Shown: piece by piece, positions 16,838 through 29,463 of the stretch
Layout: every line of letters begins with the position of its first letter
Position numbering within the stretch: position 1 is the stretch's first letter
IMG/VR virus record: IMGVR_UViG_3300042804_000010
From: a virus
Strand: one strand, 5' to 3'
DNA length: 36,614 nt
Translations under genes and position numbers: made by a program
Notes under the pieces: model-generated
What the model was told of the DNA's origin: nothing
The model's database searches: none
What the model saw: only the letters and a program-made list of their open reading frames with translations

Positions 16838-16887
16838 TGGTGCGCCCGACAGGATTCGAACCTGTGGCCTACGGATTAGAAGTCCGT
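16838..16887 (-). other. 3' half of a tRNA-Arg(UCU)-like sequence (anticodon arm, variable loop, T-arm, acceptor 3' strand, CCA); candidate attP core
   Basis: Minus-strand read ACGGA-CTTCTAA-TCCGT AGGCC ACAGG-TTCGAAT-CCTGT CGGGCGC A CCA; the upstream 5' part has only weak acceptor complementarity (GCGCAAG) and no D-arm, so it is not a complete tRNA. Confidence 0.6.
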
Positions 16888-16939
16888 AAGAGGTGAAATC
16901 TTGCGCTTTCTTATGTTTTCTTTTGTTGCGACATTTAGT

Positions 16940-17187: not shown

Positions 17188-17493
17188 TTATTTTGACTTG
17201 CTTCGAAACTGGCCTACCACATTCATTAGATCAACTATGACATCTATAGCTTTGTCGACTAACCCCATCACAGTCTCTTTTTTGAAAGGAAGATCTACAG
17301 TATTATCTGCTGCATCATAGACGGCTTCGACTAATTCAACAATTGCTCTCTTCTTTTCCGGCCCATGCTTCTTCCCATCGTCAGTGTCAGCCTCTTCAAA
17401 AATTTCAACGAGTTCTTTAACTTCTTTAAGTACTCCAAAAGCCACCTGAAAAACAGTCCAAATTTTACTAATTGTAGTTAACATATTTAACAT
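17188..17493 (-). CDS. Putative holin (N-terminal TM helix, charged C-terminal domain)
   Basis: 101-aa ORF with N-terminal hydrophobic LTTISKIWTVFQVAFGVL; last gene of the lysis cassette. Confidence 0.5.
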   Translation of the reverse strand: MLNMLTTISKIWTVFQVAFGVLKEVKELVEIFEEADTDDGKKHGPEKKRAIVELVEAVYDAADNTVDLPFKKETVMGLVDKAIDVIVDLMNVVGQFRSKSK

Positions 17494-17511
17494 CTCCTTT
17501 TAGTTTGATAA

Positions 17512-17904
17512 TTATCTATTATCCCATCTTGCTTTGTAACCGCGAACATCACAATGAACAAAACTATTATATTTTCCTATACCATCAAAACCAGCTTTTT
17601 CAGCAAAACTTGCCATTACATCTGCATCAACCCCAGCTGGCAACCTTACATCAGCTGCAGTTCCTTCCAGATGTTGAGATTTTTTTGCACCTCCTATCTT
17701 TTGATTATAAGCTGGAGTTCTGTAGCCTGAGTTAATTATAAGCGGTGTATCTTTACCTTTGTGATCAGAAACTAGCCCTCTCAGTATTTCTAGCTTTTTT
17801 GGAAGCTCTGGGTCTAGCTTAACTGATTGGGTTTCATCCCGGCATTGAAATTCCCTTAAATTAAAATGTTTAGTTATTTGAAAATCATTTACTGACATTT
17901 GCAT
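17512..17904 (-). CDS. Endolysin, peptidase M15 family (zinc D-Ala-D-Ala carboxypeptidase-like)
   Basis: ...FNLREFQCRD...INSGYRTPAYNQKIGGAKKSQHLEGTAADV...HCDVR: His/Asp zinc-ligand pattern of M15 peptidases. Confidence 0.75.
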   Translation of the reverse strand: MQMSVNDFQITKHFNLREFQCRDETQSVKLDPELPKKLEILRGLVSDHKGKDTPLIINSGYRTPAYNQKIGGAKKSQHLEGTAADVRLPAGVDADVMASFAEKAGFDGIGKYNSFVHCDVRGYKARWDNR

Positions 17905-18143
17905 TAACCTCCCATCAATTTTACAGCCATCCCAACAATCATACTAGACATTACAGTTATCATTACTGTAATAGTCCAAGTTGGTCTGCCCTGTAAATTA
18001 TCAATAATTTTAGCTATGTCTTGTTTCATATTTTGTATATCTCCCTCATCAATATTGTTAATATCTTTTTTTAATGATCTTCCAAACTCACATCCTTCTT
18101 TGTTTAGCGTTTCTGGATTGATTTCTGCGTGTCCATTCGCCAT
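17904..18143 (-). CDS. XhlA-like holin-associated membrane protein
   Basis: 79 aa; N-terminal charged/coiled region and C-terminal TM helix WTITVMITVMSSMIVGMAV; abuts the endolysin gene. Confidence 0.55.
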   Translation of the reverse strand: MANGHAEINPETLNKEGCEFGRSLKKDINNIDEGDIQNMKQDIAKIIDNLQGRPTWTITVMITVMSSMIVGMAVKLMGG

Positions 18144-18237
18144 AATTTCACCTCAAAATTTGTTTATTATCTATTTGTTAATTATTTACTTTTAAGTAAA
18201 TAAGTCCGCTTAAAAAGTTTATTTCCACTGGGTAAAT

Positions 18238-19332
18238 CTATATGCTTTTTAATTTTAGCCGGTCGCCTAAATCCAATTGCTCCAGTATATGATCATCTAG
18301 TTTGTTTATCACTGACATTTTTAAATTATAACTATCGCAATGTTTAATTATTCCCAAGTAGGAATTAACACTGGCATTAATATCCTCGATATCCACCTTC
18401 CCTTCAAAATATTTTTTATTAAGATATTTAAATCGCTTTTTCATTTTCTTTTTAGTACTTTTCCTCAATTTGCTATAACTCGGATATAGAACATATCCGC
18501 AAAAATCTATTCCTTCATTCACATGTCCAACAGTAGTTTTATTATTAAGCTGCAGCTGGAGATAATCTTCTAAAAATATTTCTATTTCCTGTCTGATTGT
18601 ATGAAGCTTCTTTTTATCTTTTCCCAAAAGTACAAAGTCATCCATATACCGGACATAGTATTTTACTTTCAAGGTGTGCTTTACAAACTTATCTAAAAAA
18701 TCAAGATAAATATTTGCAAAAAGCTGGCTCATTAAGTTGCCGATTGGTGTGCCAATCCCTTTAACTTTTTTATTTTCAAAGAAGTGATCACCTAACTGGA
18801 TACCAAACTCACCATCTTCACTTTTGATTATCTGCCAGATTAATTCCAATGTATCTCTGCAGCTAATTTTCCTTTTTATTAACTGAAATAATCTTTTATG
18901 AACTATCCTGTAAAAATATTTTGAAACGTCTGCTTTTAAAAAATATGTTTTTCCGGGCTTTCGGTCCATTATCCTTAACTTGTCCTGTAATTGATATGCA
19001 GTGAAATGAGTACCCTTTCCTCTGCGACAAGCCCCGCTATATCTGTAAAATGCCTTATCAAATATCGGGTAAAGCTTTCGATATATGCTCCACTGGACCA
19101 CTCTGTCTTTAAAAGGCAAAGCCATGATCAGTCTTTTCTTTGGCTCATAGACATAAAACTGCCTGTATTTTCCCTGTTCATATGTTTTCCACATTAATTC
19201 ATTCTGTATCTCAATTAAATTTCTCTCTAAATTATAATTAAATTTCAGCACTTCCGGTTTGTATCTTTTCCTCTTTTGAGCTTTTTGAGTTGCTATTTCT
19301 AAATTATGATAATCAGTAATTTTCTCAAACAA
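18238..19332 (-). CDS. Diversity-generating retroelement reverse transcriptase
   Basis: RT motifs FYVYEPKKRLIMALPFKDRVVQ, GTHFTAY, IGTPIGNLMSQLFANIYL (DGR-type SQ in place of the usual QGxxxSP), YVRYMDDFVLLG (YxDD); about 360 aa, as for Bordetella phage Brt; apparent TTG start at 19332. Confidence 0.9.
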   Translation of the reverse strand: MFEKITDYHNLEIATQKAQKRKRYKPEVLKFNYNLERNLIEIQNELMWKTYEQGKYRQFYVYEPKKRLIMALPFKDRVVQWSIYRKLYPIFDKAFYRYSGACRRGKGTHFTAYQLQDKLRIMDRKPGKTYFLKADVSKYFYRIVHKRLFQLIKRKISCRDTLELIWQIIKSEDGEFGIQLGDHFFENKKVKGIGTPIGNLMSQLFANIYLDFLDKFVKHTLKVKYYVRYMDDFVLLGKDKKKLHTIRQEIEIFLEDYLQLQLNNKTTVGHVNEGIDFCGYVLYPSYSKLRKSTKKKMKKRFKYLNKKYFEGKVDIEDINASVNSYLGIIKHCDSYNLKMSVINKLDDHILEQLDLGDRLKLKSI

Positions 19333-19586
19333 ATTTTTGACTGTCTTAGGAATAAATAATCACCACTCTCTATATATTAGGTGAAATATTCAAGCCCGCT
19401 CAAATGAGAACGGGCTCATAACTAATCGTGACAGCTTTCGATATTTCGCTACTTGCTATCTAATTAGTAATTCATATGTTTTCCTGGAGGGACCTCAAAA
19501 TGTATCTCAGGAAGGACTAAAGGCCTGTTCATCTTTTTGAACACTGCAGCAGAGGCCTTGACCCCATACTGTCTGATAAATTTGTA

Positions 19587-19703
19587 GATGAGCACAGGCG
19601 CCACGCACGCCAATGTTAGTGTTCACGTTCCACGGGTTATTGTTCGAGTTGACCGTCCGAGCACCGCAGATGCTACCATTGTTGAAGTTGCCACCGGCGA
19701 GGA
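19587..19703 (-). repeat. DGR template repeat (TR), 117 bp
   Basis: 102 of 117 positions identical to VR (20143-20259); all 15 differences are at TR adenines on the coding strand; carries 11 AAY codons in the VR frame. Confidence 0.9.
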
Positions 19704-19727
19704 CCAACGCCCTTAGCCCTATAAAAT

Positions 19728-20081
19728 TTATTTTTTATTTTCACAAGACTTAATCCAGCCACCCAGAAGGCGGCCAATTTCGTCTATTTTTTTGACTACA
19801 ATTTCATGTTTTCTTATAGATAAAAAATGCATATCTTTAGCAAGTCTAATTTTAACTTTTAGCTTTTTAAGTTCATCATCTATCCGGTTTAAAAATCTTA
19901 TCTTACTTCCTCGAGCTTCATTTGCATCTATTATCAATTCCATAATTCTATCTAATTTATTTTTGATTTTTGTACACATTGCAAACTTTTCTCTTTTTGG
20001 AAAATTATCAATTACTGGGTAAAAATAAAGAGTAAAGTCATAATGTTTTCTAAATATCACGAGATCATCTGTGTCTGCCAA
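19728..20081 (-). CDS. avd: DGR accessory variability determinant (Avd)
   Basis: 117-aa basic helical protein located between the target gene and TR, as in canonical DGRs; TTG start preceded by AAGGAG with a 7-nt spacer. Confidence 0.75.
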   Translation of the reverse strand: MADTDDLVIFRKHYDFTLYFYPVIDNFPKREKFAMCTKIKNKLDRIMELIIDANEARGSKIRFLNRIDDELKKLKVKIRLAKDMHFLSIRKHEIVVKKIDEIGRLLGGWIKSCENKK

Positions 20082-20131
20082 ATCATCACTCCTTCAAGTT
20101 CTAAACCTAACCAAAAACCATTATCAGATTA

Positions 20132-21169
20132 TCAGGCACTCTGATGAGCACAGGCGCCACGCACGCCAACGCTAGTGTTCACGTCCCACGGGCGAAAGTC
20201 CGAGCTGACCGTCCGAGCACCGCAGAGGCCACCACTGCTGAAGCCGCCACCGGCGAGGAGGCCAATAATAGCCACATTATTTTGCATGTAAGCTTCACCA
20301 TGCTGATAACCGCTGTCTTTACCTGCATTAAGCACATCATACCAACTGAATGAAGTTGAGCCAGTATTTCTATAAGTATACTCGTCTAATCTTTCCCAAA
20401 GGTTACCAGCGCAATCTACAAGGTTATAGCAAGAAACTGCTTGTTCTACAGTTCCAGTTGAAGTTCGACCTGAATTACTTGAACTAGACCAAGCGGCATT
20501 ATTATCATTTTCGTGGCCTTCTGGGCTACCATAGGCAGCCATTAACCATTCCTGCCTGGTTAATTTTCTTTTGTTGACATTTGCAAGACCCCTAATGAAA
20601 TCATAATCATTATAACCCTCAGTTCCTGAGACCGGGGTCGCATTGTATTCACTCACAAGTTCAGTTTCCGGCCAGGTTCCGCTGCCTTCACTTGCAATAT
20701 ATATATCAGCCCAAAAGTTTGATACCTTGACCATTCCAGTAGGGTCACAGGCAGGTCTGTAGTTCAATGACCAGACTGAGTTTGGCAGTATATTAACTGC
20801 AATTGAGGCTGTATCATCATATCTTTGAGCGTTTGTTCTGATGCGGCCATAATGAAAACCACCAATTTTTCTGCTATTATTTTCTGTATACCCGTCTGGA
20901 TAAGTAGAGTTGATAGAAATAACAAAATCGGGCTCTGCATCAGCTGATGGCTGCAAAGCATATATATAATAGTTTTCGCCAAGCGTGAAACTTACAAAAC
21001 TGCCGTCGCTATCAGCTTCAGTCAAAATAGTATCAGTTTCTTTTTTGAGATTCTGTCTATCAATTCTCAAAGCTAATGGAGGTACTGTAACTTCATCAGC
21101 TGCACTCTTTTCAATATGGCCTTTGAAATTGTAGAATGAAGGTGAATCAGCTCCAACAAAAGTTAACAT
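20132..21169 (-). CDS. DGR target protein: distal tail/receptor-binding protein with C-terminal C-type-lectin/FGE-like fold carrying the VR
   Basis: C-terminal ...SCYNLVDCAGNLWERLDEY...LLAGGGFSSGGLCGARTVSSDFRPWDVNTSVGVRGACAHQSA; VR occupies the last about 39 codons; last gene of the tail module. Confidence 0.85.
   Translation of the reverse strand: MLTFVGADSPSFYNFKGHIEKSAADEVTVPPLALRIDRQNLKKETDTILTEADSDGSFVSFTLGENYYIYALQPSADAEPDFVISINSTYPDGYTENNSRKIGGFHYGRIRTNAQRYDDTASIAVNILPNSVWSLNYRPACDPTGMVKVSNFWADIYIASEGSGTWPETELVSEYNATPVSGTEGYNDYDFIRGLANVNKRKLTRQEWLMAAYGSPEGHENDNNAAWSSSSNSGRTSTGTVEQAVSCYNLVDCAGNLWERLDEYTYRNTGSTSFSWYDVLNAGKDSGYQHGEAYMQNNVAIIGLLAGGGFSSGGLCGARTVSSDFRPWDVNTSVGVRGACAHQSA
20143..20259 (-). 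repeat. DGR variable repeat (VR), 117 bp, at the 3' end of the target gene
   Basis: Aligns to TR 19587-19703; the coding-strand 3' end is a GC-rich invariant segment ggcgtgcgtggcgcctgtgctcatc (IMH-like). Confidence 0.9.
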
Positions 21170-22191: not shown

Positions 22192-24933
22192 TTAATATCC
22201 TTCGATTATAATCTTTTCTGCAGTTCCTCCAACATCATTATTGTTAATGTCAAATATCTGCACATCTACACTATCATTTGTTTTATTCGTGAAATTAGCA
22301 TATTTCATTGTTGATCCATCTTGTAGCAAGTAGTAATTATATGATCTTGGCACTTCATAATACTCTACTCCGTAATCACTGTAATTAATTGTTGTTCCGC
22401 CTACGGGTACTGACAGATTATCAATTTCTAACTCTAAATCAGGCACATCAAAAAATTGTTTAATTTCATTAAGCTCAAATTCAGCAGTTTCAGTTTCCAG
22501 CTGAAAATTAAATTTAAACTGGCAGTATCTAAATTTGTATTCTCCAGTCATGTATTCTTGCCAGTCCGACCATTCAACATTATCGTCAGAAAATCTAACA
22601 TATATTTCAGTCTCATAGATAGCAGGTGGATTGTCTAAACTGTTATTAGGAAAATCATCCAATCCACGATTGGGGAAACTCAACAAGCTTAATCCTAAGT
22701 CTTGGAAAAACCAATCTTTTTTGAGCCTTATATCTGTTCGGCCAACTCTGACTGTATCAATAATTTCTGTCATATATTCAGCGCTAAAATCATAATCAGG
22801 CAAACCGTCTGCAAAAGCAGGAATATCAGGCCAATCATCAAGATTATAGCCGGCTAAGTCTTCTAAATTATACATGTGGAAGAATGCTATCTTGCCGTTA
22901 ATATTATCTATATTATCTAGTGTTGCATTATCTATATAATCAAGTTCATTTCTTTCGATAATTATATTAAGCTCCTGGCCAGTACCTGAAACTTCAAAAA
23001 TTACTGATGTGAAATCACTTGAATACTGTCTAACTCTATCAATTGTCTTAATCATATACATATGTGTTCCATCAATTTCATTTTCAGAAGTCCATCTGTC
23101 TCCAGTAAGTTTAGTCCCGAGAACTTCTCCATTATCCCAGTCTGTTCCTTTTCTAATTTCATAACCTAAAACATCTGGCTCATTTACTTCCTGCCATTTG
23201 AATATTAATTTTGCACCTTTTTGAGCGACTTGGAAGGTGCCAGGTGCTGCAGGTTTATTATCTTTACCTGATATAACTATTTTTCTTGAAGTAACTCCAG
23301 AACTTGTAATACCTCTATATTTTGAAACTGTCCGGACTCTTACAATATAATGAGAATTAACTTTTAAATTAGATATTTCAAAGCTGTCAGCTTCTGTTTC
23401 TCCGGCTATTCTATAACTTTTACCATCTTCTGAATAATCAATTACTGCATGATCAACTCTTTCATCATCAGGAATATCAAAATCTACGATTAAATTACTG
23501 ATTAAATTCCCATCCATGGTAGTATAACCGTATTCAGAAACAGAAAGATTATTTACTTCATTAGGAGCTTCAAAAGGATTCTTAAATTCAGAGCCGTAAT
23601 TCTCCTGCTGCACAACTCCATCATCAGTATAAATAGATTCATTATATTCAAGAGCAGTAATAGTCATATTATGATCTTCGGCTTCTTCTATTTCCATAAT
23701 TCGGAAAGGTTTATCAACCCAACCTGGTCTTTTATGGGTAACTAATATTTTATCGCCGACTTCTGCTTCAATATCTTTTATGCTTGCTCCAAAACTGATT
23801 ATTTGAGTGCAAAACTTTGATTTCTTTTGATAATATCTAGCTTCTCGCCCTGCTTGACTAAAACGATTAATACCATTAAGAGTTATGGTTTTAATCGATT
23901 CTCCAGGAACACTATTATCAATAAATCTCGCTCCAATAGTTTCAAAATTTTCAGCTGGATCTGTATATTCAACGACTACTTCTCTAAGTCTTTCTTTGCG
24001 TGATGTTCCGCGCCTTGCAAAACTGCCTACAATTATATTGTCAGTTTCTTCATTATCTGAAAATACAAAGCTTTGAGTTGCTATATCTGGCTTATCTATT
24101 TTAATTTTTAATTTTCCATCGGACCAAATTAAAAACGCTCTAAAAGTTGATAACATTTCATTTAGAATGTCTAATGCTGAACTTTTAGCATCAATGACAA
24201 AATCTAATTCAAACCTTTTTTTTCCATCGACAAGCTGATCAGCATATTCTGCAGCTTCTTTGAAACTTTCTAGATCGATAAAAGCATCAGAAACACCAAA
24301 ACCAAATCTCATTTTGCTTATAAAATCTAAAATACACCACGCGGGATTATTACTATATTTAGTAACCCAACTGCTGCCAGTCCAAACTCTTACATGCCTA
24401 CCCTTGATTATTGCGGTCATAGTTGGAGTTCCTGATGTTTCTAATTTATTAGCGTCAAGAGTTGTCGAATAGTGGGCAAGGAAAGGAAATGTTTGACCGC
24501 GTTCATTTTTCGACCAGGCAGATTGTTTTCTGTAACCTAATTTAGTTTCTGCGCTAATTGTTTTATCGTCAGCTTTAATTTCTTCTATTGATTCAATTGG
24601 CCCTTCTGAAATTCCAACCTGAATGTCCATAAGGTTATCATTTTCGCCGCTGATTTTTTGATTAATTATGTTACCAGCTACAAGATTTCTGCCATAGACA
24701 ACCGGAACTGGTATCTGGTGACTTTTGGTATTGCTTATCGGTCCAAACGAATATGTTGGCGAATTCTTTGATTGATTCATACTTTCTTGAAATTCTTTGG
24801 CCTCTTTATAATTATCGTAAGAGTTACCGACTGAAAAACCTAACATTGCTCCGGCTGCTATAGTCATCCCTCCGACTGTCGATGCAGCTGCTGCAGCTCC
24901 TGCTGCTATTCCGACTAGTGCTCCTACTCCCAT
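22192..24933 (-). CDS. Host-specificity protein J-like central tail fibre/tip protein
   Basis: 913 aa; follows the M/L/K-like genes as in lambda-type tail tips; Gly/Ala-rich hydrophobic N-terminus, large beta-rich body. Confidence 0.6.
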   Translation of the reverse strand: MGVGALVGIAAGAAAAASTVGGMTIAAGAMLGFSVGNSYDNYKEAKEFQESMNQSKNSPTYSFGPISNTKSHQIPVPVVYGRNLVAGNIINQKISGENDNLMDIQVGISEGPIESIEEIKADDKTISAETKLGYRKQSAWSKNERGQTFPFLAHYSTTLDANKLETSGTPTMTAIIKGRHVRVWTGSSWVTKYSNNPAWCILDFISKMRFGFGVSDAFIDLESFKEAAEYADQLVDGKKRFELDFVIDAKSSALDILNEMLSTFRAFLIWSDGKLKIKIDKPDIATQSFVFSDNEETDNIIVGSFARRGTSRKERLREVVVEYTDPAENFETIGARFIDNSVPGESIKTITLNGINRFSQAGREARYYQKKSKFCTQIISFGASIKDIEAEVGDKILVTHKRPGWVDKPFRIMEIEEAEDHNMTITALEYNESIYTDDGVVQQENYGSEFKNPFEAPNEVNNLSVSEYGYTTMDGNLISNLIVDFDIPDDERVDHAVIDYSEDGKSYRIAGETEADSFEISNLKVNSHYIVRVRTVSKYRGITSSGVTSRKIVISGKDNKPAAPGTFQVAQKGAKLIFKWQEVNEPDVLGYEIRKGTDWDNGEVLGTKLTGDRWTSENEIDGTHMYMIKTIDRVRQYSSDFTSVIFEVSGTGQELNIIIERNELDYIDNATLDNIDNINGKIAFFHMYNLEDLAGYNLDDWPDIPAFADGLPDYDFSAEYMTEIIDTVRVGRTDIRLKKDWFFQDLGLSLLSFPNRGLDDFPNNSLDNPPAIYETEIYVRFSDDNVEWSDWQEYMTGEYKFRYCQFKFNFQLETETAEFELNEIKQFFDVPDLELEIDNLSVPVGGTTINYSDYGVEYYEVPRSYNYYLLQDGSTMKYANFTNKTNDSVDVQIFDINNNDVGGTAEKIIIEGY

Positions 24934-26532: not shown

Positions 26533-29463
26533 TTAAGATTTTTTAATAGCTTGTCTAAGAGTTCCATTTCTCATAATATCTCGGCCTACAACATTGATAA
26601 TTGCATCCGGATTTCTACTAACATATTCAGCAAATGATTGAGTATCAATGGCAGTAATGTCGAATATATTTATTGGCGCTGAACCACCACCATTTTGTAA
26701 TCCTTTTACCTGGTCTTTATTTAGCACATATTCGCCATTTTCTAAAATTGCAGGCACTTCATTACTTTTAAGGCCGATTCCTCCACCTTCGTGATACCTC
26801 TGCATTTTTGCAATAGCATTAGCTGGGCTAACAAAACCTCCTTCATGGAAGGTTGGAAGATTTAAACCGCCTAAAGCATAATTAACTATAGGGCCAACAA
26901 CAGCTTTTTGTAATACCATTGAAGCAATTTGATCAGCTATATTGTCGAATACATCTCCTAAGTCTTCGCCTCTAGCTATTGCATCTGATAAGCCAGTTAT
27001 TAAATCATCTTTCCAATCAACAAATTTCTGGTTAGCTTCTTCGATTTCTAGTCCTAAATCAACAAAAGCATCAGTCATCCAGTTGATAGATTTGGCTCCT
27101 TCTTTTGAATCGCTTTCTCCAGTATAGCCAGTAGCTGCATTTCTTCCCATTCTTCCGAGATTGGCAAGATTAGTTGAAAAGTCATTAGGATCGCTTTCTG
27201 CTTTTAATGTTTCATTTATTTTTTCTCTAATTCGCCGCCATTCATCAGTGTCTTTTTCATATTGTTTTAGACGCTCTCTTAAATATTTTCGATATTGAGT
27301 TTCAGATATTTTACCCATTTCAAAGCGGTTTTCCATTTTCTCTCTTTCAAGTTGAAGTTCTTTTTTATTATATTTTTCAATAATATCTAATCTTTTTTCT
27401 CGATAAATTTTTGTGAGAGTGGCTGTATCCTGGCCTTTTTCCTGCATCAATTCTTTTTCAGCTTCATACTGCTGCTCTAATTGAGCAAGTTCTCTTTCTT
27501 TACCATCTTTTTTGAGAAGCTCAAGCTCATTTTGCAATTGTTCTTCCCTTTCAATAGCAGCCTCTTTGCGGCGCTCTGCTTCCTCTTCTTCCTGTTCGTT
27601 AACTTCTTCAAGATAATCTTTATACTGGTTATTGTAGAATTGCTCAACCATTTCTTTTAATTTTTCTTTTTGTTCAGCTGTTGCATCTTTGAGATTATCA
27701 ATTCTTTCAAATTCACCATACATTTTATTTTCTAATTTAGCCCAGGCTTTTTCTGAGTCATTAGACATATTTTCTACTTCTTGCTCAAAATTATATGATT
27801 CTATTTCAGCTCTTAATTCATCAATGTAATTTTTGTAATCGCTTTGATCAGATGTTGAACCTCCGCCACCGCCACCAGATAAATCTACTTCTTCTAATTC
27901 ATTGTTAGTTTCTTCAATTTCTTGCAAAGCCTTTTCAGTCTCATCTAAATCTTTTTTTAGATTATTCAATCTGTTTTGTGATTCGCTTATAGAATATTTT
28001 TCACCTATTATGGAATCTTCGCTTGCCCCATTTCTGCGAGCCTCTAATCTCCGTTCTTCTTTTTGGATGTCAGATTCAAGTAGGTCTTTTCTTCTTTTAA
28101 GTTCGGCTTCGTTTAGCGATTTAACATTTCGCTCCATAAATTTAAGCTGCTTGTTTCCCTCGTAAATTCTTTTTGCAAGAAGGCCAAAGCCTACTATAAC
28201 AGCTCCGCCGATCATATAAGGATTTAAAGCTGCAGTTAATCCGCCGGCTCCGTTAATTACATTTGTTAAAGAGCTCAATGTAAGAGATAAGTTTCCGGTA
28301 ATGCTTAATACTGGTCCTAAAGCAGCCGCCACTCCTGCACCAAAAATAACCATGTCTTGCTCTTCTTCTGATAAGTCATTGAAAGCATCTACTACATCTA
28401 TGACATTTTCCTTTATTTGAGTCATTATTGGTTCTAGTTCTGCACCTAATTCAGCTAAAGATTGCTCTAAATCATAATTAGCTTCTGCACTTTCTACAAG
28501 TGCTTCATTATTATCTTTATACTGCTCATATACATCTGATAGTCCGGTATTGGCAAGAGTCTGCATTACATAATCAGTTGCTTTGCCGTTTTCTTTTGCA
28601 GTCTGCAGCCCTTCATTAAAATCATCTAAATTAATACCTAATCTTGACAGCATTTCATCAAATTGACCAACTGACTGTCCCGATCCAATAGTTTCCTGGA
28701 TTGATTCAGATAAATTTTCAAACTTCAATGTGTCTGGGAACTGTATAACAGCACCAGCTATATCATCAATAACACTTGATAATTGTTCATCTCTGAAACC
28801 TGCAGCTAACAAACTGGATAATCCCTCAACGTTAGAATCTAATTCGCCAGTAACGGCGTTAAGATCTGACATATATCCGTGCATTTCATCAATACTTACA
28901 TTTGCAGTTCGAGCGTTATTTTCAAGAGTCGAAACTTCTTTTCTAAAATCTCTTGTTCCTTCTGTAAGCGCAAAAAAGGCAGCTGTAATAGGTAAAGTGA
29001 CATGAGTATTAAGGTTATCACCGATTCCTTTCATTCTATTCCCGAACTTTTCCATGCCGTCCGCAGCTTTTTGCATCTTTCTGCTAAATTCATTCGCTTT
29101 TCTTTGGGTTTTCTCGAGTTCATCTGTAAAACTTTCAAGCTGATCTTCAGTTTTAATCAGCTCTCTGCGATATTCCCGGTATTCCTTTTCTCCAACATCT
29201 CCAGACTTATATTGTTTCTGCATGTCTTTTTCAGCTTGTTTTAATACATCAAGTTTTTCTTTAGTTTGCTCAACTCTTTCTGTAAGAATATCCTGTTTTT
29301 GAGCCCAGAGTTCAACTGAGTCTGGATTGAATTTTAATGCTCGATTAACCTGGTATAATTCCCGGCCAATTTTCCTTGATTGAGAGCGAATATCTTTAAG
29401 AGCTTTGTCAAGACCTTTCGTCGATGCTCCAATTTCTACAGTTATACCTTTTTTCTGAGCCAC
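26533..29463 (-). CDS. Tail tape measure protein
   Basis: 976 aa, long coiled-coil/charged central region, GGGGGG linker, hydrophobic segments; GTG start preceded by GGGAGGTGA; sits between chaperone and tip genes. Confidence 0.85.
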   Translation of the reverse strand: MAQKKGITVEIGASTKGLDKALKDIRSQSRKIGRELYQVNRALKFNPDSVELWAQKQDILTERVEQTKEKLDVLKQAEKDMQKQYKSGDVGEKEYREYRRELIKTEDQLESFTDELEKTQRKANEFSRKMQKAADGMEKFGNRMKGIGDNLNTHVTLPITAAFFALTEGTRDFRKEVSTLENNARTANVSIDEMHGYMSDLNAVTGELDSNVEGLSSLLAAGFRDEQLSSVIDDIAGAVIQFPDTLKFENLSESIQETIGSGQSVGQFDEMLSRLGINLDDFNEGLQTAKENGKATDYVMQTLANTGLSDVYEQYKDNNEALVESAEANYDLEQSLAELGAELEPIMTQIKENVIDVVDAFNDLSEEEQDMVIFGAGVAAALGPVLSITGNLSLTLSSLTNVINGAGGLTAALNPYMIGGAVIVGFGLLAKRIYEGNKQLKFMERNVKSLNEAELKRRKDLLESDIQKEERRLEARRNGASEDSIIGEKYSISESQNRLNNLKKDLDETEKALQEIEETNNELEEVDLSGGGGGGSTSDQSDYKNYIDELRAEIESYNFEQEVENMSNDSEKAWAKLENKMYGEFERIDNLKDATAEQKEKLKEMVEQFYNNQYKDYLEEVNEQEEEEAERRKEAAIEREEQLQNELELLKKDGKERELAQLEQQYEAEKELMQEKGQDTATLTKIYREKRLDIIEKYNKKELQLEREKMENRFEMGKISETQYRKYLRERLKQYEKDTDEWRRIREKINETLKAESDPNDFSTNLANLGRMGRNAATGYTGESDSKEGAKSINWMTDAFVDLGLEIEEANQKFVDWKDDLITGLSDAIARGEDLGDVFDNIADQIASMVLQKAVVGPIVNYALGGLNLPTFHEGGFVSPANAIAKMQRYHEGGGIGLKSNEVPAILENGEYVLNKDQVKGLQNGGGSAPINIFDITAIDTQSFAEYVSRNPDAIINVVGRDIMRNGTLRQAIKKS

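What the first reader, a model, noticed from the sequence alone, without database searches (positions are those of the whole stretch)
19587..20259. TR/VR pair shows strictly adenine-specific mismatches (15 of 15), the signature of mutagenic retrohoming
Over the 117-bp alignment, 102 positions are identical and every one of the 15 differences is at a coding-strand adenine in TR (11 to G, 2 to C, 2 to T in VR). TR carries 11 AAY codons in the VR reading frame; 9 are substituted in VR (to G, S, D, F, R), along with one Ser and two Ile codons that also contain adenine. The last 25 nt at the VR 3' end are invariant and GC-rich, as expected for an IMH-like element.
Basis: seen in the sequence. Interest (0 to 1): 0.85.

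Follow-up and report, generated by a model that had tools for sequence, protein, structure and literature searches.

The report
Phage tail-fibre hypermutation cassette (DGR)
This is a complete, recently active diversity-generating retroelement in a temperate Halanaerobium phage: it rewrites the tip of the phage's receptor-binding protein by error-prone reverse transcription, and it is a well-preserved new example of a mechanism that is already well understood.

Summary
The template copy (TR, 19587-19703) and the variable copy (VR, 20143-20259) are 117-nt copies on the minus strand. They are identical at 102 positions. All 15 differences fall on TR adenines (11 to G, 2 to C, 2 to T; P=2.4e-12). 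Two small corrections: TR has 10 AAY codons, not 11, and the invariant 3' tail is 27 nt, not 25.

The surroundings form a canonical cassette: an Mtd-like target gene, avd, TR, a spacer RNA and a DGR-type reverse transcriptase. It sits between the tail genes and the lysis genes of a temperate siphovirus.

Eight related contigs share an identical TR but carry six different VRs. Among them, 23 of 26 adenine columns vary against 2 of 91 other columns. Two 40-kb sister genomes differ at 1 of about 9,800 flanking bases but at 14 of 117 VR bases.

The spacer RNA has the helices of the BPP-1 cis-priming architecture, with covariation, and is a sub-threshold match to Rfam RT-14.

One departure from the model system: the GC-rich hairpin downstream of VR, present in distant relatives and in BPP-1, is missing here.

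Verdict: a real, active DGR and a new member of a known kind. Interest is modest.

The parts
20132..21169 (-). Target gene: Mtd-like receptor-binding (tail-fibre tip) protein of 345 aa, with VR encoding its last ~40 residues
   Evidence: ORF. Pfam mtd_2nd, E 7.8e-25. phmmer against PDB: Bordetella phage Mtd 1yu4, E 1.5e-12, aligned over residues 52-342 and ending in the shared ...GxRGxCxH motif. It lies directly after the tail genes (Phage-tail_3 at 22192-24933) and before the lysis genes.
20143..20259 (-). VR (variable repeat), the recipient copy
   Evidence: It differs from TR only at 15 TR adenines. Six distinct VRs occur among 8 contigs that share an identical TR. Among 14 full-length proteins of the same 90% cluster there are 13 distinct VR peptides.
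20098..20142 (-). Post-VR flank: target-gene stop codon, then CTGATAATCTG-ATAATGG-TTTTTGG-TTAGG. This looks like a degenerate remnant of the (A/T)TCTG heptad array seen in relatives. There is no GC-rich hairpin.
   Evidence: The DNA fold of 20070-20175 is no better than shuffles (z -0.45). The element is conserved across the Halanaerobium clade. Distant relatives carry 2-4 heptads plus a GC hairpin with a GRNA loop.
19728..20081 (-). avd (accessory variability determinant), 117 aa, TTG start
   Evidence: Pfam bAvd, E 5e-28. NCBIfam DivGenRetAVD equivalog, 105.2 bits against a cutoff of 80. Weak PDB hits to BPP-1 Avd, 4dwl and 8ub7_B.
19709..19719 (-). Upstream strand of the 'Stop' duplex (GGGCUAAGGGC), 5 nt before TR. 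It pairs with spacer 19514-19524.
   Evidence: RNA fold. An equivalent 11-13 bp duplex is found in all 21 lineages tested, with own-partner energy -24.3 against cross-partner -16.7 kcal/mol. Compensatory C:G to U:A change in L019/L023/L024.
19587..19703 (-). TR (template repeat), non-coding donor copy with 26 adenines
   Evidence: It is 100% identical in 7 related loci (9 loci in the later tally) whose avd, target and RT genes are only 82-90% identical to the window.
19586..19594 (-). TR-side strand of the template:primer-like helix P1 (UGCUCAUCU). By inference, cDNA synthesis starts just 5' of it, at about G 19595.
   Evidence: Inverted repeat I11. Three two-sided compensatory changes relative to L023 (UGCUCUUUA:UAGAGAACA), read. 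The A at 19589 is never mutated in any VR. VR differs from TR at TR position 112 in many relatives.
19333..19586 (-). Spacer RNA between TR and the RT gene, 94-98% conserved across the close clades
   Evidence: My covariance model R1 hits 19452-19610(-) at 54.8 bits, E 2e-10. Rfam RT-14 (RF02921) hits 19422-19589(-) at 44.2 bits, below its gathering score of 48.1.
19547..19571 (-). SL1: 10-bp stem with a bulged U and a CAAG tetraloop, directly after TR. It resembles the Avd-binding stem-loop of BPP-1.
   Evidence: All 9 modelled pairs show two-sided changes across relatives.
19526..19534 (-). Spacer-side strand of P1 (AGAUGAACA). Its 3' A at 19526 is the predicted priming nucleotide, by analogy only.
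   Evidence: The analogy is to Sp A56 of BPP-1 (preprint 10.1101/2023.10.23.563531).
19514..19524 (-). Spacer strand of the Stop duplex (GCCUUUAGUCC), 1 nt after P1
19481..19513 (-). SL2 (UUCCUG...CAGGAA), followed by an A-run (AACA)
   Evidence: Pairs vary on both sides in relatives. This matches the 'stem-loop plus adenosines' element described in the preprint.
19422..19466 (-). Distal spacer hairpin, the 3' helix of the Rfam RT-14 model
18238..19332 (-). DGR reverse transcriptase, 364 aa as listed from TTG. Translation more likely starts at ATT 19353.
   Evidence: Pfam RVT_1. The best PDB hit is bRT of the BPP-1 DGR, 8ub7_A, E 2.3e-52, against 1.5e-17 for group II intron RTs. The alignment shows the IGNLMSQ motif, YMDD, and the counterparts of bRT F66, R74, I76, I181 and Q187.

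Best explanation
The region is a complete, functional diversity-generating retroelement (DGR) of the Bordetella-phage BPP-1 type, carried by a temperate siphovirus of Halanaerobium.

Proposed mechanism. The avd-TR-spacer-RT region is transcribed. Avd and the RT bind the structured RNA that flanks TR. The spacer folds back so that a short helix (P1: TR 3' end 19594-19586 with spacer 19534-19526) places a spacer adenosine as a cis-primer. TR is then reverse-transcribed from about position 109 towards its 5' end. The RT inserts random nucleotides opposite template adenines. Synthesis stops at the duplex formed by the sequence just upstream of TR (19719-19709) and the spacer (19524-19514). The adenine-mutagenised cDNA replaces VR at the 3' end of the Mtd-like tail-fibre gene, while TR stays unchanged.

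Capacity. Sixteen codons, ten of them AAY, can vary. That gives about 2e15 possible peptides with no stop codon reachable. The region altered is the ligand-binding face of a C-type-lectin-fold receptor-binding domain, so the likely outcome is altered host range.

Shown here: the parts, the adenine specificity, the unidirectional and local nature of the variation in natural populations, and the conserved RNA helices.

Inferred by homology with BPP-1: cis-priming, the exact start and stop nucleotides, the way the cDNA is integrated, and the receptor-binding role.
For: Adenine specificity in the window: 15 of 15 differences at TR adenines, P=2.4e-12.

Codon design: all 26 adenines are at codon positions 1 or 2, there are 10 AAY codons, and no stop is reachable.

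Components: the target is homologous to Mtd through its C-terminus. Avd scores above the NCBIfam DGR-Avd cutoff. The RT is closest to bRT (E 2e-52) and has IGNLMSQ and YMDD. The Avd-dependent catalytic residues R74 and I181 described in PMC7826257 are conserved in that alignment.

Population evidence:
- 8 loci with an identical TR carry 6 distinct VRs. 23 of 26 A columns vary against 2 of 91 non-A columns, p=5e-19.
- Over 10 distinct TR/VR pairs, 114 of 119 mismatches are at A: 62 to G, 28 to C, 24 to T.
- L005 and L007 differ at 1 of 5,900 nt upstream and 0 of 3,883 nt downstream of VR, but at 14 of 117 nt inside it.
- Two cluster members are identical to the window protein over residues 1-304 but have different VR peptides.

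Directionality: TR is 100% conserved where the neighbouring genes are 82-90% identical.

RNA:
- The Stop duplex is present in 21 of 21 lineages, with own-partner energy -24.3 against cross-partner -16.7 kcal/mol.
- On a MAFFT alignment not fitted to any structure, P1, SL1 and SL2 give a covariation score of 0.519 against 0.223 for shuffles (0 of 500 reach it) and at most 0.21 for slid registers.
- On the model-fitted alignment, 82% of cells are paired.
- The architecture matches the bRT-Avd-RNA cryo-EM description.

Transfer boundary: VR differs from TR at position 112 in many relatives, and the A at position 115 is never mutated. This fits a cDNA start 5' of P1.
Against: No read-level or experimental data exist for this particular genome. 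Three assemblies that encode the same protein (L057-L059) carry the same VR as the window.

The GC-rich hairpin/cruciform downstream of VR strongly stimulates retrohoming in BPP-1 (PMC3240598; PMC12875486) and is present in distant relatives. It is absent here.

The window shows no IMH/IMH* sequence difference.

The spacer scores just below the Rfam RT-14 gathering score: 44.2 against 48.1 bits.

In the covariance-model alignment, P1 of the window clade is mis-registered. Its support therefore rests on a by-eye comparison of only two Halanaerobium clades.

The RT start codon is uncertain (TTG 19332 without a Shine-Dalgarno sequence, or ATT 19353 with one).

A 3D model of the target could not be obtained (pLDDT 30).
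Confidence: 0.92

Rival explanations
1. The cassette is a fossil in this genome. The adenine-specific pattern records past activity, but the element no longer diversifies, for example because it lost the downstream hairpin or has a poor RT start site.
For: There is no GC hairpin after VR. The RT ORF as listed starts at TTG with no nearby Shine-Dalgarno sequence. Three independent assemblies carry the identical VR. A related Halanaerobium salsuginis prophage (L003/L051) has demonstrably lost avd, TR and most of the RT while keeping a VR.
Against: All ORFs are intact and the catalytic motifs are present. TR and the spacer are under visibly stronger conservation than the flanking genes. The whole hairpin-less clade shows different VRs on near-identical backbones. 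Residual hairpin-independent retrohoming is documented in BPP-1.
Confidence: 0.07
2. The pair is an ordinary segmental duplication of the gene's 3' end. It diverged by point mutation, with selection or gene conversion shaping the differences, and no reverse transcription is involved.
For: The two copies are direct repeats 556 nt apart. Such repeats could in principle arise by duplication.
Against: 15 of 15 differences, and 114 of 119 pooled differences, fall on adenines of one copy only. One copy is invariant across lineages while the other is hypervariable. The divergence rate inside VR is hundreds of times that of the flanks. An RT and Avd sit next to the pair.
Confidence: 0.005
3. An adenine-specific editing or deamination process acts directly on VR DNA or RNA, independently of TR.
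For: A>G is the commonest change: 11 of 15 in the window and 62 of 114 pooled.
Against: Deamination gives only A>G, but 46% of the pooled changes are A>C or A>T. The changed positions are defined by adenines in TR, not in VR, and non-mutated positions revert to the TR state across lineages. No deaminase gene was seen among the window ORFs that were scanned.
Confidence: 0.005

Closest known systems
Bordetella phage BPP-1 DGR (mtd-avd-TR-brt)
   Same: Same gene order and strand logic. The target is a sequence homologue of Mtd (E 1.5e-12). The RT is closest to bRT among all solved structures (E 2e-52). An Avd is present. TR is of similar length (117 against 134 nt). Both use AAY-rich templates. 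[quoted passage not shown]
   Different: RT identity is only moderate. No IMH/IMH* mismatches are visible in the window. There is no GC-rich 8-bp hairpin with a GRNA loop downstream of VR. The Stop-duplex strand lies in the avd-TR intergenic space, not inside avd. The host is a halophilic anaerobic Bacillota, not a Proteobacterium. The observed spectrum favours A>G, but this is after selection.
Bacillus phage BalMu-1, Clostridium phage Saumur, Faecalibacterium phage FP_Lagaffe (isolated Bacillota phages with the same RT type)
   Same: These are the nearest RTs among 50,697 deposited phage records: 53%, 48% and 45% identity over about 94% of the protein. The Alkalihalobacillus alcalophilus locus (L038; the species is the recorded host of BalMu-1) has the same cassette, with TR/VR mismatches 10 of 11 at A.
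   Different: No record shares 60% RT identity or more, and there is no nucleotide-level match. L038 and the other distant Bacillota loci keep the post-VR heptad array and the GC hairpin that the window clade lacks.
Rfam RF02921 'RT-14 RNA' (Weinberg et al. 2017, PMC5737381)
   Same: The spacer at 19422-19589(-) aligns end to end with the 144-position model (SL1 with a UAAG-type loop, conserved CAGU, the AAAGG...UCC strand, SL2, distal hairpin). Nine distant relatives pass the gathering score, at 51-85 bits, and in each the match starts at or just before the mapped 3' end of TR (TR coordinates).
   Different: The window scores 44.2 bits, below the gathering score of 48.1. Its outer helix is not aligned by the model. 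The linker between P1 and the Stop strand is about 3 nt shorter than in the family. The paper left the function of most RT motifs open and speculated that some act in DGRs. The Rfam model does not include the partner strand upstream of TR.

Membership tests
Diversity-generating retroelement (DGR) | Reverse transcriptase of the DGR clade with the signature motif [I/V/L]GxxxSQ in place of QGxxxSP, and an intact YxDD | tested here: met
   The RT has IGNLMSQ and YMDD. The best solved-structure hit is bRT 8ub7_A, E 2.3e-52, against 1.5e-17 for group II intron RTs. The motif definition is from PMC7826257. NCBIfam models for group II, retron and Drt RTs all score below their cutoffs.
Diversity-generating retroelement (DGR) | A TR/VR near-repeat pair whose mismatches correspond to adenines in TR | tested here: met
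   15 of 15 in the window, P=2.4e-12. 114 of 119 over 10 related pairs.
Diversity-generating retroelement (DGR) | VR lies at the 3' end of a protein-coding gene, and TR is non-coding and adjacent to the RT | tested here: met
   VR ends 9 nt before the stop codon of ORF 20132-21169. TR lies between avd and the RT gene.
Diversity-generating retroelement (DGR) | One-way information flow: TR invariant, VR variable in populations | tested here: met
   TR is identical in 8 loci that carry 6 distinct VRs, while the flanks are 82-100% identical.
Diversity-generating retroelement (DGR) | Accessory protein Avd (in the Avd-containing class) | tested here: met
   NCBIfam DivGenRetAVD, 105.2 bits against a cutoff of 80. 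Pfam bAvd, E 5e-28.
Diversity-generating retroelement (DGR) | IMH at the VR 3' end: a GC-rich segment that marks the 3' limit of transfer and differs slightly from IMH* in TR | tested here: inconclusive
   The last 27 nt are 67% GC, hold one A, and are identical in TR and VR in the window. In relatives, VR differs from TR at position 112 and the A at position 115 is never mutated, so the terminal ~6-8 nt are not copied. There is no (GC)14 plus 21-bp organisation as in BPP-1.
Diversity-generating retroelement (DGR) | Hairpin/cruciform-forming inverted repeat directly downstream of VR (Guo et al. 2011). This is a stimulatory element, not strictly a defining one. | tested here: not met
   No such repeat exists between VR and avd. 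It is present, with GATA/GACA/GAAA loops, in most of the 18 distant relatives examined. BPP-1 keeps residual activity without it.
Diversity-generating retroelement (DGR) | Structured RNA flanking TR that supports cis-primed reverse transcription (Stop duplex, template:primer duplex, Avd-binding stem-loop) | tested here: met
   The architecture is as described in 10.1101/2023.10.23.563531. Priming itself cannot be tested with these tools.
Mtd-type DGR variable protein (C-type lectin fold) | Homology to Mtd, including the C-terminal variable domain that ends in ...GxRGxCxH | tested here: met
   phmmer against 1yu4_A, E 1.5e-12, residues 52-342 aligned to 94-377. Pfam mtd_2nd, 87.8 bits against a cutoff of 24.6. 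The 3D confirmation failed: the single-sequence AlphaFold model has pLDDT 30.
Rfam RF02921 RT-14 RNA | Score at or above the curated gathering score (48.1 bits) | tested here: not met
   44.2 bits, E 3.8e-5 to 1.5e-4, full-length alignment. Relatives score 51-85 bits. The window's spacer is a divergent homologue, not a formal member.

The most novel reading that the evidence does not exclude
The Halanaerobium-phage clade performs efficient mutagenic retrohoming without the GC-rich hairpin/cruciform thought to mark DGR targets. In addition, the array of (A/T)TCTG heptads that follows VR in the wider Bacillota family (25-fold enriched, 2-4 copies; degenerate but conserved here as CTGATAATCTG-ATAATGG-TTTTTGG) would be a previously undescribed cis element of target recognition or cDNA integration.
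Probability: 0.2. Interest if true: 0.5.

Novelty: new member of a known kind. Interest (0 to 1): 0.3.

Why it matters
DGRs are the only known natural system of targeted protein hypermutation in prokaryotes and their viruses. This locus adds nothing categorically new to that picture.

Its value is as an unusually clean natural dataset:
- There are several near-identical 40-kb phage genomes from Halanaerobium-dominated samples that differ almost only in VR. These give in situ evidence for ongoing tropism switching in that host-phage system.
- There is a natural knock-out control, a decayed cassette in H. salsuginis.
- The broad Bacillota family of relatives shows by covariation that the BPP-1 cis-priming RNA architecture is conserved, and it ties the orphan Rfam motif RT-14 to the DGR spacer role.
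- The missing hairpin and the heptad array after VR are small open points about how the target site is recognised, which is the least understood step of retrohoming.

Tried and rejected
1. Megablast of the cassette against 50,697 phage records found no match. Relatives had to be found through proteins.
The metagenome scan gave other variants instead.
3. Unconstrained RNA duplex searches for the short P1 helix were noisy: own-partner -11.0 against cross-partner -9.9 kcal/mol, permutation p 0.006. The first version of the script timed out. P1 was therefore assessed on alignments and by direct comparison of clades.
4. I considered that the conserved spacer motif YCAGAAG might base-pair with the post-VR ATCTG heptads, giving RNA-guided target recognition. 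I rejected it because L036 and L039 lack CAGA in the spacer yet keep three to four heptads.
5. A DNA hairpin or cruciform downstream of VR was searched for and not found.
6. Single-sequence AlphaFold of the target gave pLDDT 30 and was not used, and no fold search was run.
7. The sigma-70 promoter and terminator scan of the cassette was not above shuffled expectation and gave nothing usable.
8. The Rfam hit to SNORD52 at 20035-20093 (24.7 bits against a gathering score of 45) was dismissed as chance.
9. The large protein homology searches were not run, because homology to Mtd, bRT and Avd was already established from PDB, Pfam and NCBIfam.
Full report
**1. Checking the observation**

The repeat finder returns a single long direct repeat in the region: 19587-19703 and 20143-20259, 117 nt, 87% identical. 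On the minus strand, which is the coding strand of every gene here, 102 positions are identical. All 15 differences fall where the 19587-19703 copy has adenine: 11 A>G, 2 A>C and 2 A>T. That copy has 26 adenines in 117 nt, so the hypergeometric chance of 15 out of 15 is 2.4e-12.

In the frame of ORF 20132-21169(-), all 26 adenines occupy codon positions 1 or 2. Nine of them are altered in VR, together with AGC, ATC and ATT. The invariant 3' tail is 27 nt, not 25, and is 67% GC. It holds only one adenine, so its invariance in this one pair is nearly automatic. A search with all TR adenines masked finds only these two copies in the 36.6-kb window.

**2. What surrounds it**

Reading the minus strand in order, the region holds:
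- tail genes: a tape-measure protein at 26533-29463 and a Phage-tail_3/fn3 protein at 22192-24933;
- two small ORFs;
- a 345-aa protein with the Pfam 'Mtd second domain'. It aligns with the Bordetella phage major tropism determinant over residues 52-342, through the variable C-terminus to the shared GxRGxCxH ending (E 1.5e-12);
- a 117-aa Avd, which scores above the NCBIfam cutoff for the DGR-Avd equivalog;
- the A-rich repeat copy, in non-coding DNA;
- a 254-nt spacer;
- a 364-aa reverse transcriptase. Its best match among all solved structures is bRT of the BPP-1 DGR (E 2.3e-52, against 1.5e-17 for group II intron RTs). It has IGNLMSQ, YMDD, and the counterparts of bRT R74 and I181, the residues reported to promote adenine mutagenesis;
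- a small 79-aa ORF (a putative holin by position, not tested) and an M15 endolysin.

The rest of the window encodes terminase, portal, major head protein, integrase, an S24 repressor, an antirepressor and replication functions. The window is therefore a temperate siphovirus genome. The closest genomic relatives of the RT are in Halanaerobium saccharolyticum, H. salsuginis and a Halanaerobiales MAG. The same protein is encoded on 36.6-kb contigs from JGI 3300007158 and ENA ERZ27245717.

**3. The population test**

I could not map reads, but independent contigs serve the same purpose.
- Eight loci (the window and seven IMG/VR contigs) carry a TR identical at all 117 positions and six different VRs. 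Among these VRs, 23 of the 26 adenine columns vary, against 2 of the 91 others (Fisher p=5e-19).
- Over ten distinct TR/VR pairs of this phage lineage, 114 of 119 mismatches are at TR adenines: 62 to G, 28 to C and 24 to T. That is about 44% of adenine sites changed against 0.5% of other sites.
- TR is 100% conserved in genomes whose avd, target gene and RT are only 82-90% identical to the window.
- The sharpest comparison is between sister genomes. L005 and L007 (40.7 and 40.5 kb) differ at 1 of 5,900 nt upstream and 0 of 3,883 nt downstream of VR, but at 14 of 117 nt inside it.
- In the window protein's own 90% cluster, 14 full-length members show 13 different VR peptides. Two members are identical to the window protein over residues 1-304.

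This is what unidirectional, adenine-specific, recently active mutagenic retrohoming predicts. It rules out duplication with drift. It also rules out deamination, because 46% of the changes are transversions.

**4. How it most likely works: the RNA**

The spacer is more conserved (94-98%) than the flanking genes across the close clades. Folding the avd-end-to-RT RNA gives a long-range duplex between GGGCUAAGGGC (19719-19709, 5 nt before TR) and GCCUUUAGUCC in the spacer (19524-19514).

An equivalent 11-13 bp duplex is found in all 21 lineages examined, in Halanaerobium phages and in distant Bacillota prophages. The sequences differ between lineages (for example GGGGAAUGGGCC/GGCCCAUUUCCC and GGGGGACGGGUC/GACCCGUCUCCC). 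Own-partner energy is -24.3 against -16.7 kcal/mol for partners swapped between loci.

Immediately 5' of the spacer strand lies AGAUGAACA (19534-19526), complementary to the TR 3' end UGCUCAUCU (19594-19586). The L023 clade has UAGAGAACA:UGCUCUUUA at the same place, which gives three two-sided compensatory changes. In the distant family the equivalent 5-6 bp helix lies a few nucleotides after the end of TR/VR homology and covaries.

Directly after TR there is a 10-bp stem with a bulged base and a CAAG tetraloop (19571-19547). After the Stop strand there is a second stem-loop followed by an A-run (19513-19477).

On a MAFFT alignment of 21 lineages that was not fitted to any structure, these three helices give:
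- 73% paired cells against 56% in shuffles;
- 82 against 34 cells with two-sided changes;
- a covariation score of 0.519 against 0.223 (0 of 500 shuffles reach it), and at most 0.21 for slid registers.

A covariance model built from that alignment finds one copy beside the TR in each of these cassettes and several in two loci (see section 7). It hits the window at 19452-19610(-) (54.8 bits) and gives 82% pairing on the fitted alignment.

[quoted passage not shown] That work reports the architecture as widespread (10.1101/2023.10.23.563531).

Independent support for where copying starts comes from two observations. In many relatives VR differs from TR at position 112, inside P1. The adenine at position 115 is never mutated in any VR. 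So the last ~6-8 nt of the repeat are not transferred.

The exact priming nucleotide (about A 19526), the first template base (about G 19595) and the stop (about 19704-19708) are inferences by analogy. They are not results.

Rfam already holds this RNA as the orphan motif RT-14 (RF02921). Nine distant relatives pass its gathering score (51-85 bits). The window aligns end to end but scores 44.2 against 48.1 bits. Weinberg et al. described the RT motifs as associated with RT genes and speculated that some act in DGRs (PMC5737381).

**5. Where it departs from the model system**

In BPP-1, a GC-rich 8-bp hairpin with a GRNA loop just after VR strongly stimulates retrohoming (PMC3240598; PMC12875486). 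Most of the distant Bacillota relatives examined have such a hairpin (loops GATA, GACA, GAAA) about 45 nt after VR. It is preceded by 2-4 copies of a heptad ending in (A/T)TCTG, a motif 25 times denser there than elsewhere in those loci.

The window and its whole Halanaerobium clade have no hairpin before avd. They have only a conserved, degenerate remnant, CTGATAATCTG-ATAATGG-TTTTTGG-TTAGG. Yet this clade clearly diversifies. No paper in the searchable library pairs this motif with DGRs in a relevant context; the single hit is an unrelated Legionella study. I tested and rejected the idea that the heptads pair with a conserved spacer motif.

The window also shows no IMH/IMH* mismatch. Homology simply ends after GCTCATC.

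**6. Capacity and biology**

Sixteen codons can vary, ten of them AAY with 15 possible amino acids each. That gives about 2.4e15 peptides from 4.5e15 DNA sequences, and no stop codon is reachable. By homology with Mtd and by its position after the tail genes, the protein is the receptor-binding tip of the tail, so the probable consequence is host-range switching. This last step is inference.

**7. Comparison, novelty and verdict**

The nearest RTs in isolated phages are in Bacillus phage BalMu-1 (53% identity), Clostridium phage Saumur (48%) and Faecalibacterium phage FP_Lagaffe (45%). No deposited phage shares nucleotide similarity. The cassette meets every defining feature of a DGR that could be tested. 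The exception is the stimulatory downstream hairpin, and the IMH test is inconclusive.

It is a new member of a known kind. It is real, intact and recently active in its lineage. A specialist would not be surprised, because Mtd-type phage DGRs are common. The residual interest lies in the clean natural 'before and after' genomes, the link between RT-14 and the DGR spacer role, and the hairpin-less target site with its heptad remnant.

Things that failed or were not used:
- single-sequence structure prediction (pLDDT 30);
- contig look-ups for two cluster members;
- the promoter and terminator scan.

Seen in passing:
- ARAGORN finds no tRNA, although Rfam reports a weak tRNA-like hit at 16841-16906(-).
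- Two distant loci carry arrays of 4-5 tandem TR-plus-spacer units.
- The H. salsuginis prophage keeps a VR but has lost avd, TR and most of the RT.

Noticed in passing
window 20098-20142 (- strand); L025-L050, 55 nt after each VR: In distant Bacillota relatives, VR is followed by 2-4 heptads ending in (A/T)TCTG (25-fold enriched) and then a GC-rich hairpin with a GRNA loop. The window clade keeps only a conserved degenerate remnant (CTGATAATCTG-ATAATGG-TTTTTGG-TTAGG) and has no hairpin. The function of the heptads is unknown, and no relevant paper in the library pairs the motif with DGRs.
   Followed up: partly
L042:4828-5930 (Bacterium 1XD42-1) and L043:4669-5940 (Enterocloster aldenensis): Four to five tandem TR-plus-spacer units, about 290 nt apart, lie upstream of a single RT gene. 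Each is a full hit to the spacer model. The TR units differ from one another at many non-adenine positions, and the one VR found matches one unit best (1 non-A mismatch). This looks like an array of alternative templates.
   Followed up: partly
L003 / L051 (Halanaerobium salsuginis ATCC 51327, contig of 23,643 nt), VR at L051:5812-5928: This is a decayed cassette. VR is intact, but avd, TR, the spacer and the first ~230 residues of the RT are deleted, and the RT fragment starts 72 nt after VR. The VR is effectively frozen, with 10 adenine-site and 2 non-adenine differences from the window TR.
   Followed up: partly
window 19330-19360 (- strand): The RT ORF is listed from TTG 19332, which has no nearby Shine-Dalgarno sequence. 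An in-frame ATT at 19353 lies about 7 nt after GGTGA. The seven codons in between are conserved at the amino-acid level in the L019 clade, where the TTG is not conserved. They would also fill the N-terminal residues missing in the alignment to bRT. ATT is probably the true start.
   Followed up: partly
window 16841-16906 (- strand): Rfam reports a weak tRNA hit here (32.5 bits against a gathering score of 29), but ARAGORN finds no tRNA. The sequence has a good T-arm and ends in ...GCGCACCA, but has a poor acceptor 5' strand and D-arm. It is followed by a terminator-like hairpin with a T-run. It could be a degenerate phage tRNA or an attachment-site remnant; the integrase gene lies 1.2 kb away.
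   Followed up: partly
L007, L008, L009, L063: VR columns 20 and 31 (equivalent to window 20240 and 20229): One VR allele carries two non-adenine changes (C>G and G>C), each directly next to a TR adenine. These are rare off-adenine events or later point mutations. They account for 2 of the 5 non-adenine mismatches in the pooled set.
   Followed up: no
TR/VR pairs of the whole lineage (window, L001-L011, L060, L061): The substitution spectrum at adenines is A>G 54%, A>C 25% and A>T 21%. PMC7826257 reports dATP, which would give A>T, as the most frequently misincorporated nucleotide for BPP-1 bRT in vitro. Whether the difference reflects the enzyme or selection on the protein cannot be told from these data.
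   Followed up: no
window 17488-17520 and 18143-18175: This is a 33-nt direct repeat at 73% identity. On the minus strand both copies sit at or just upstream of the start codon of a lysis-region ORF (ORFs 17188-17493 and 17904-18143), so they may be similar translation-initiation regions. This was not tested.
   Followed up: no
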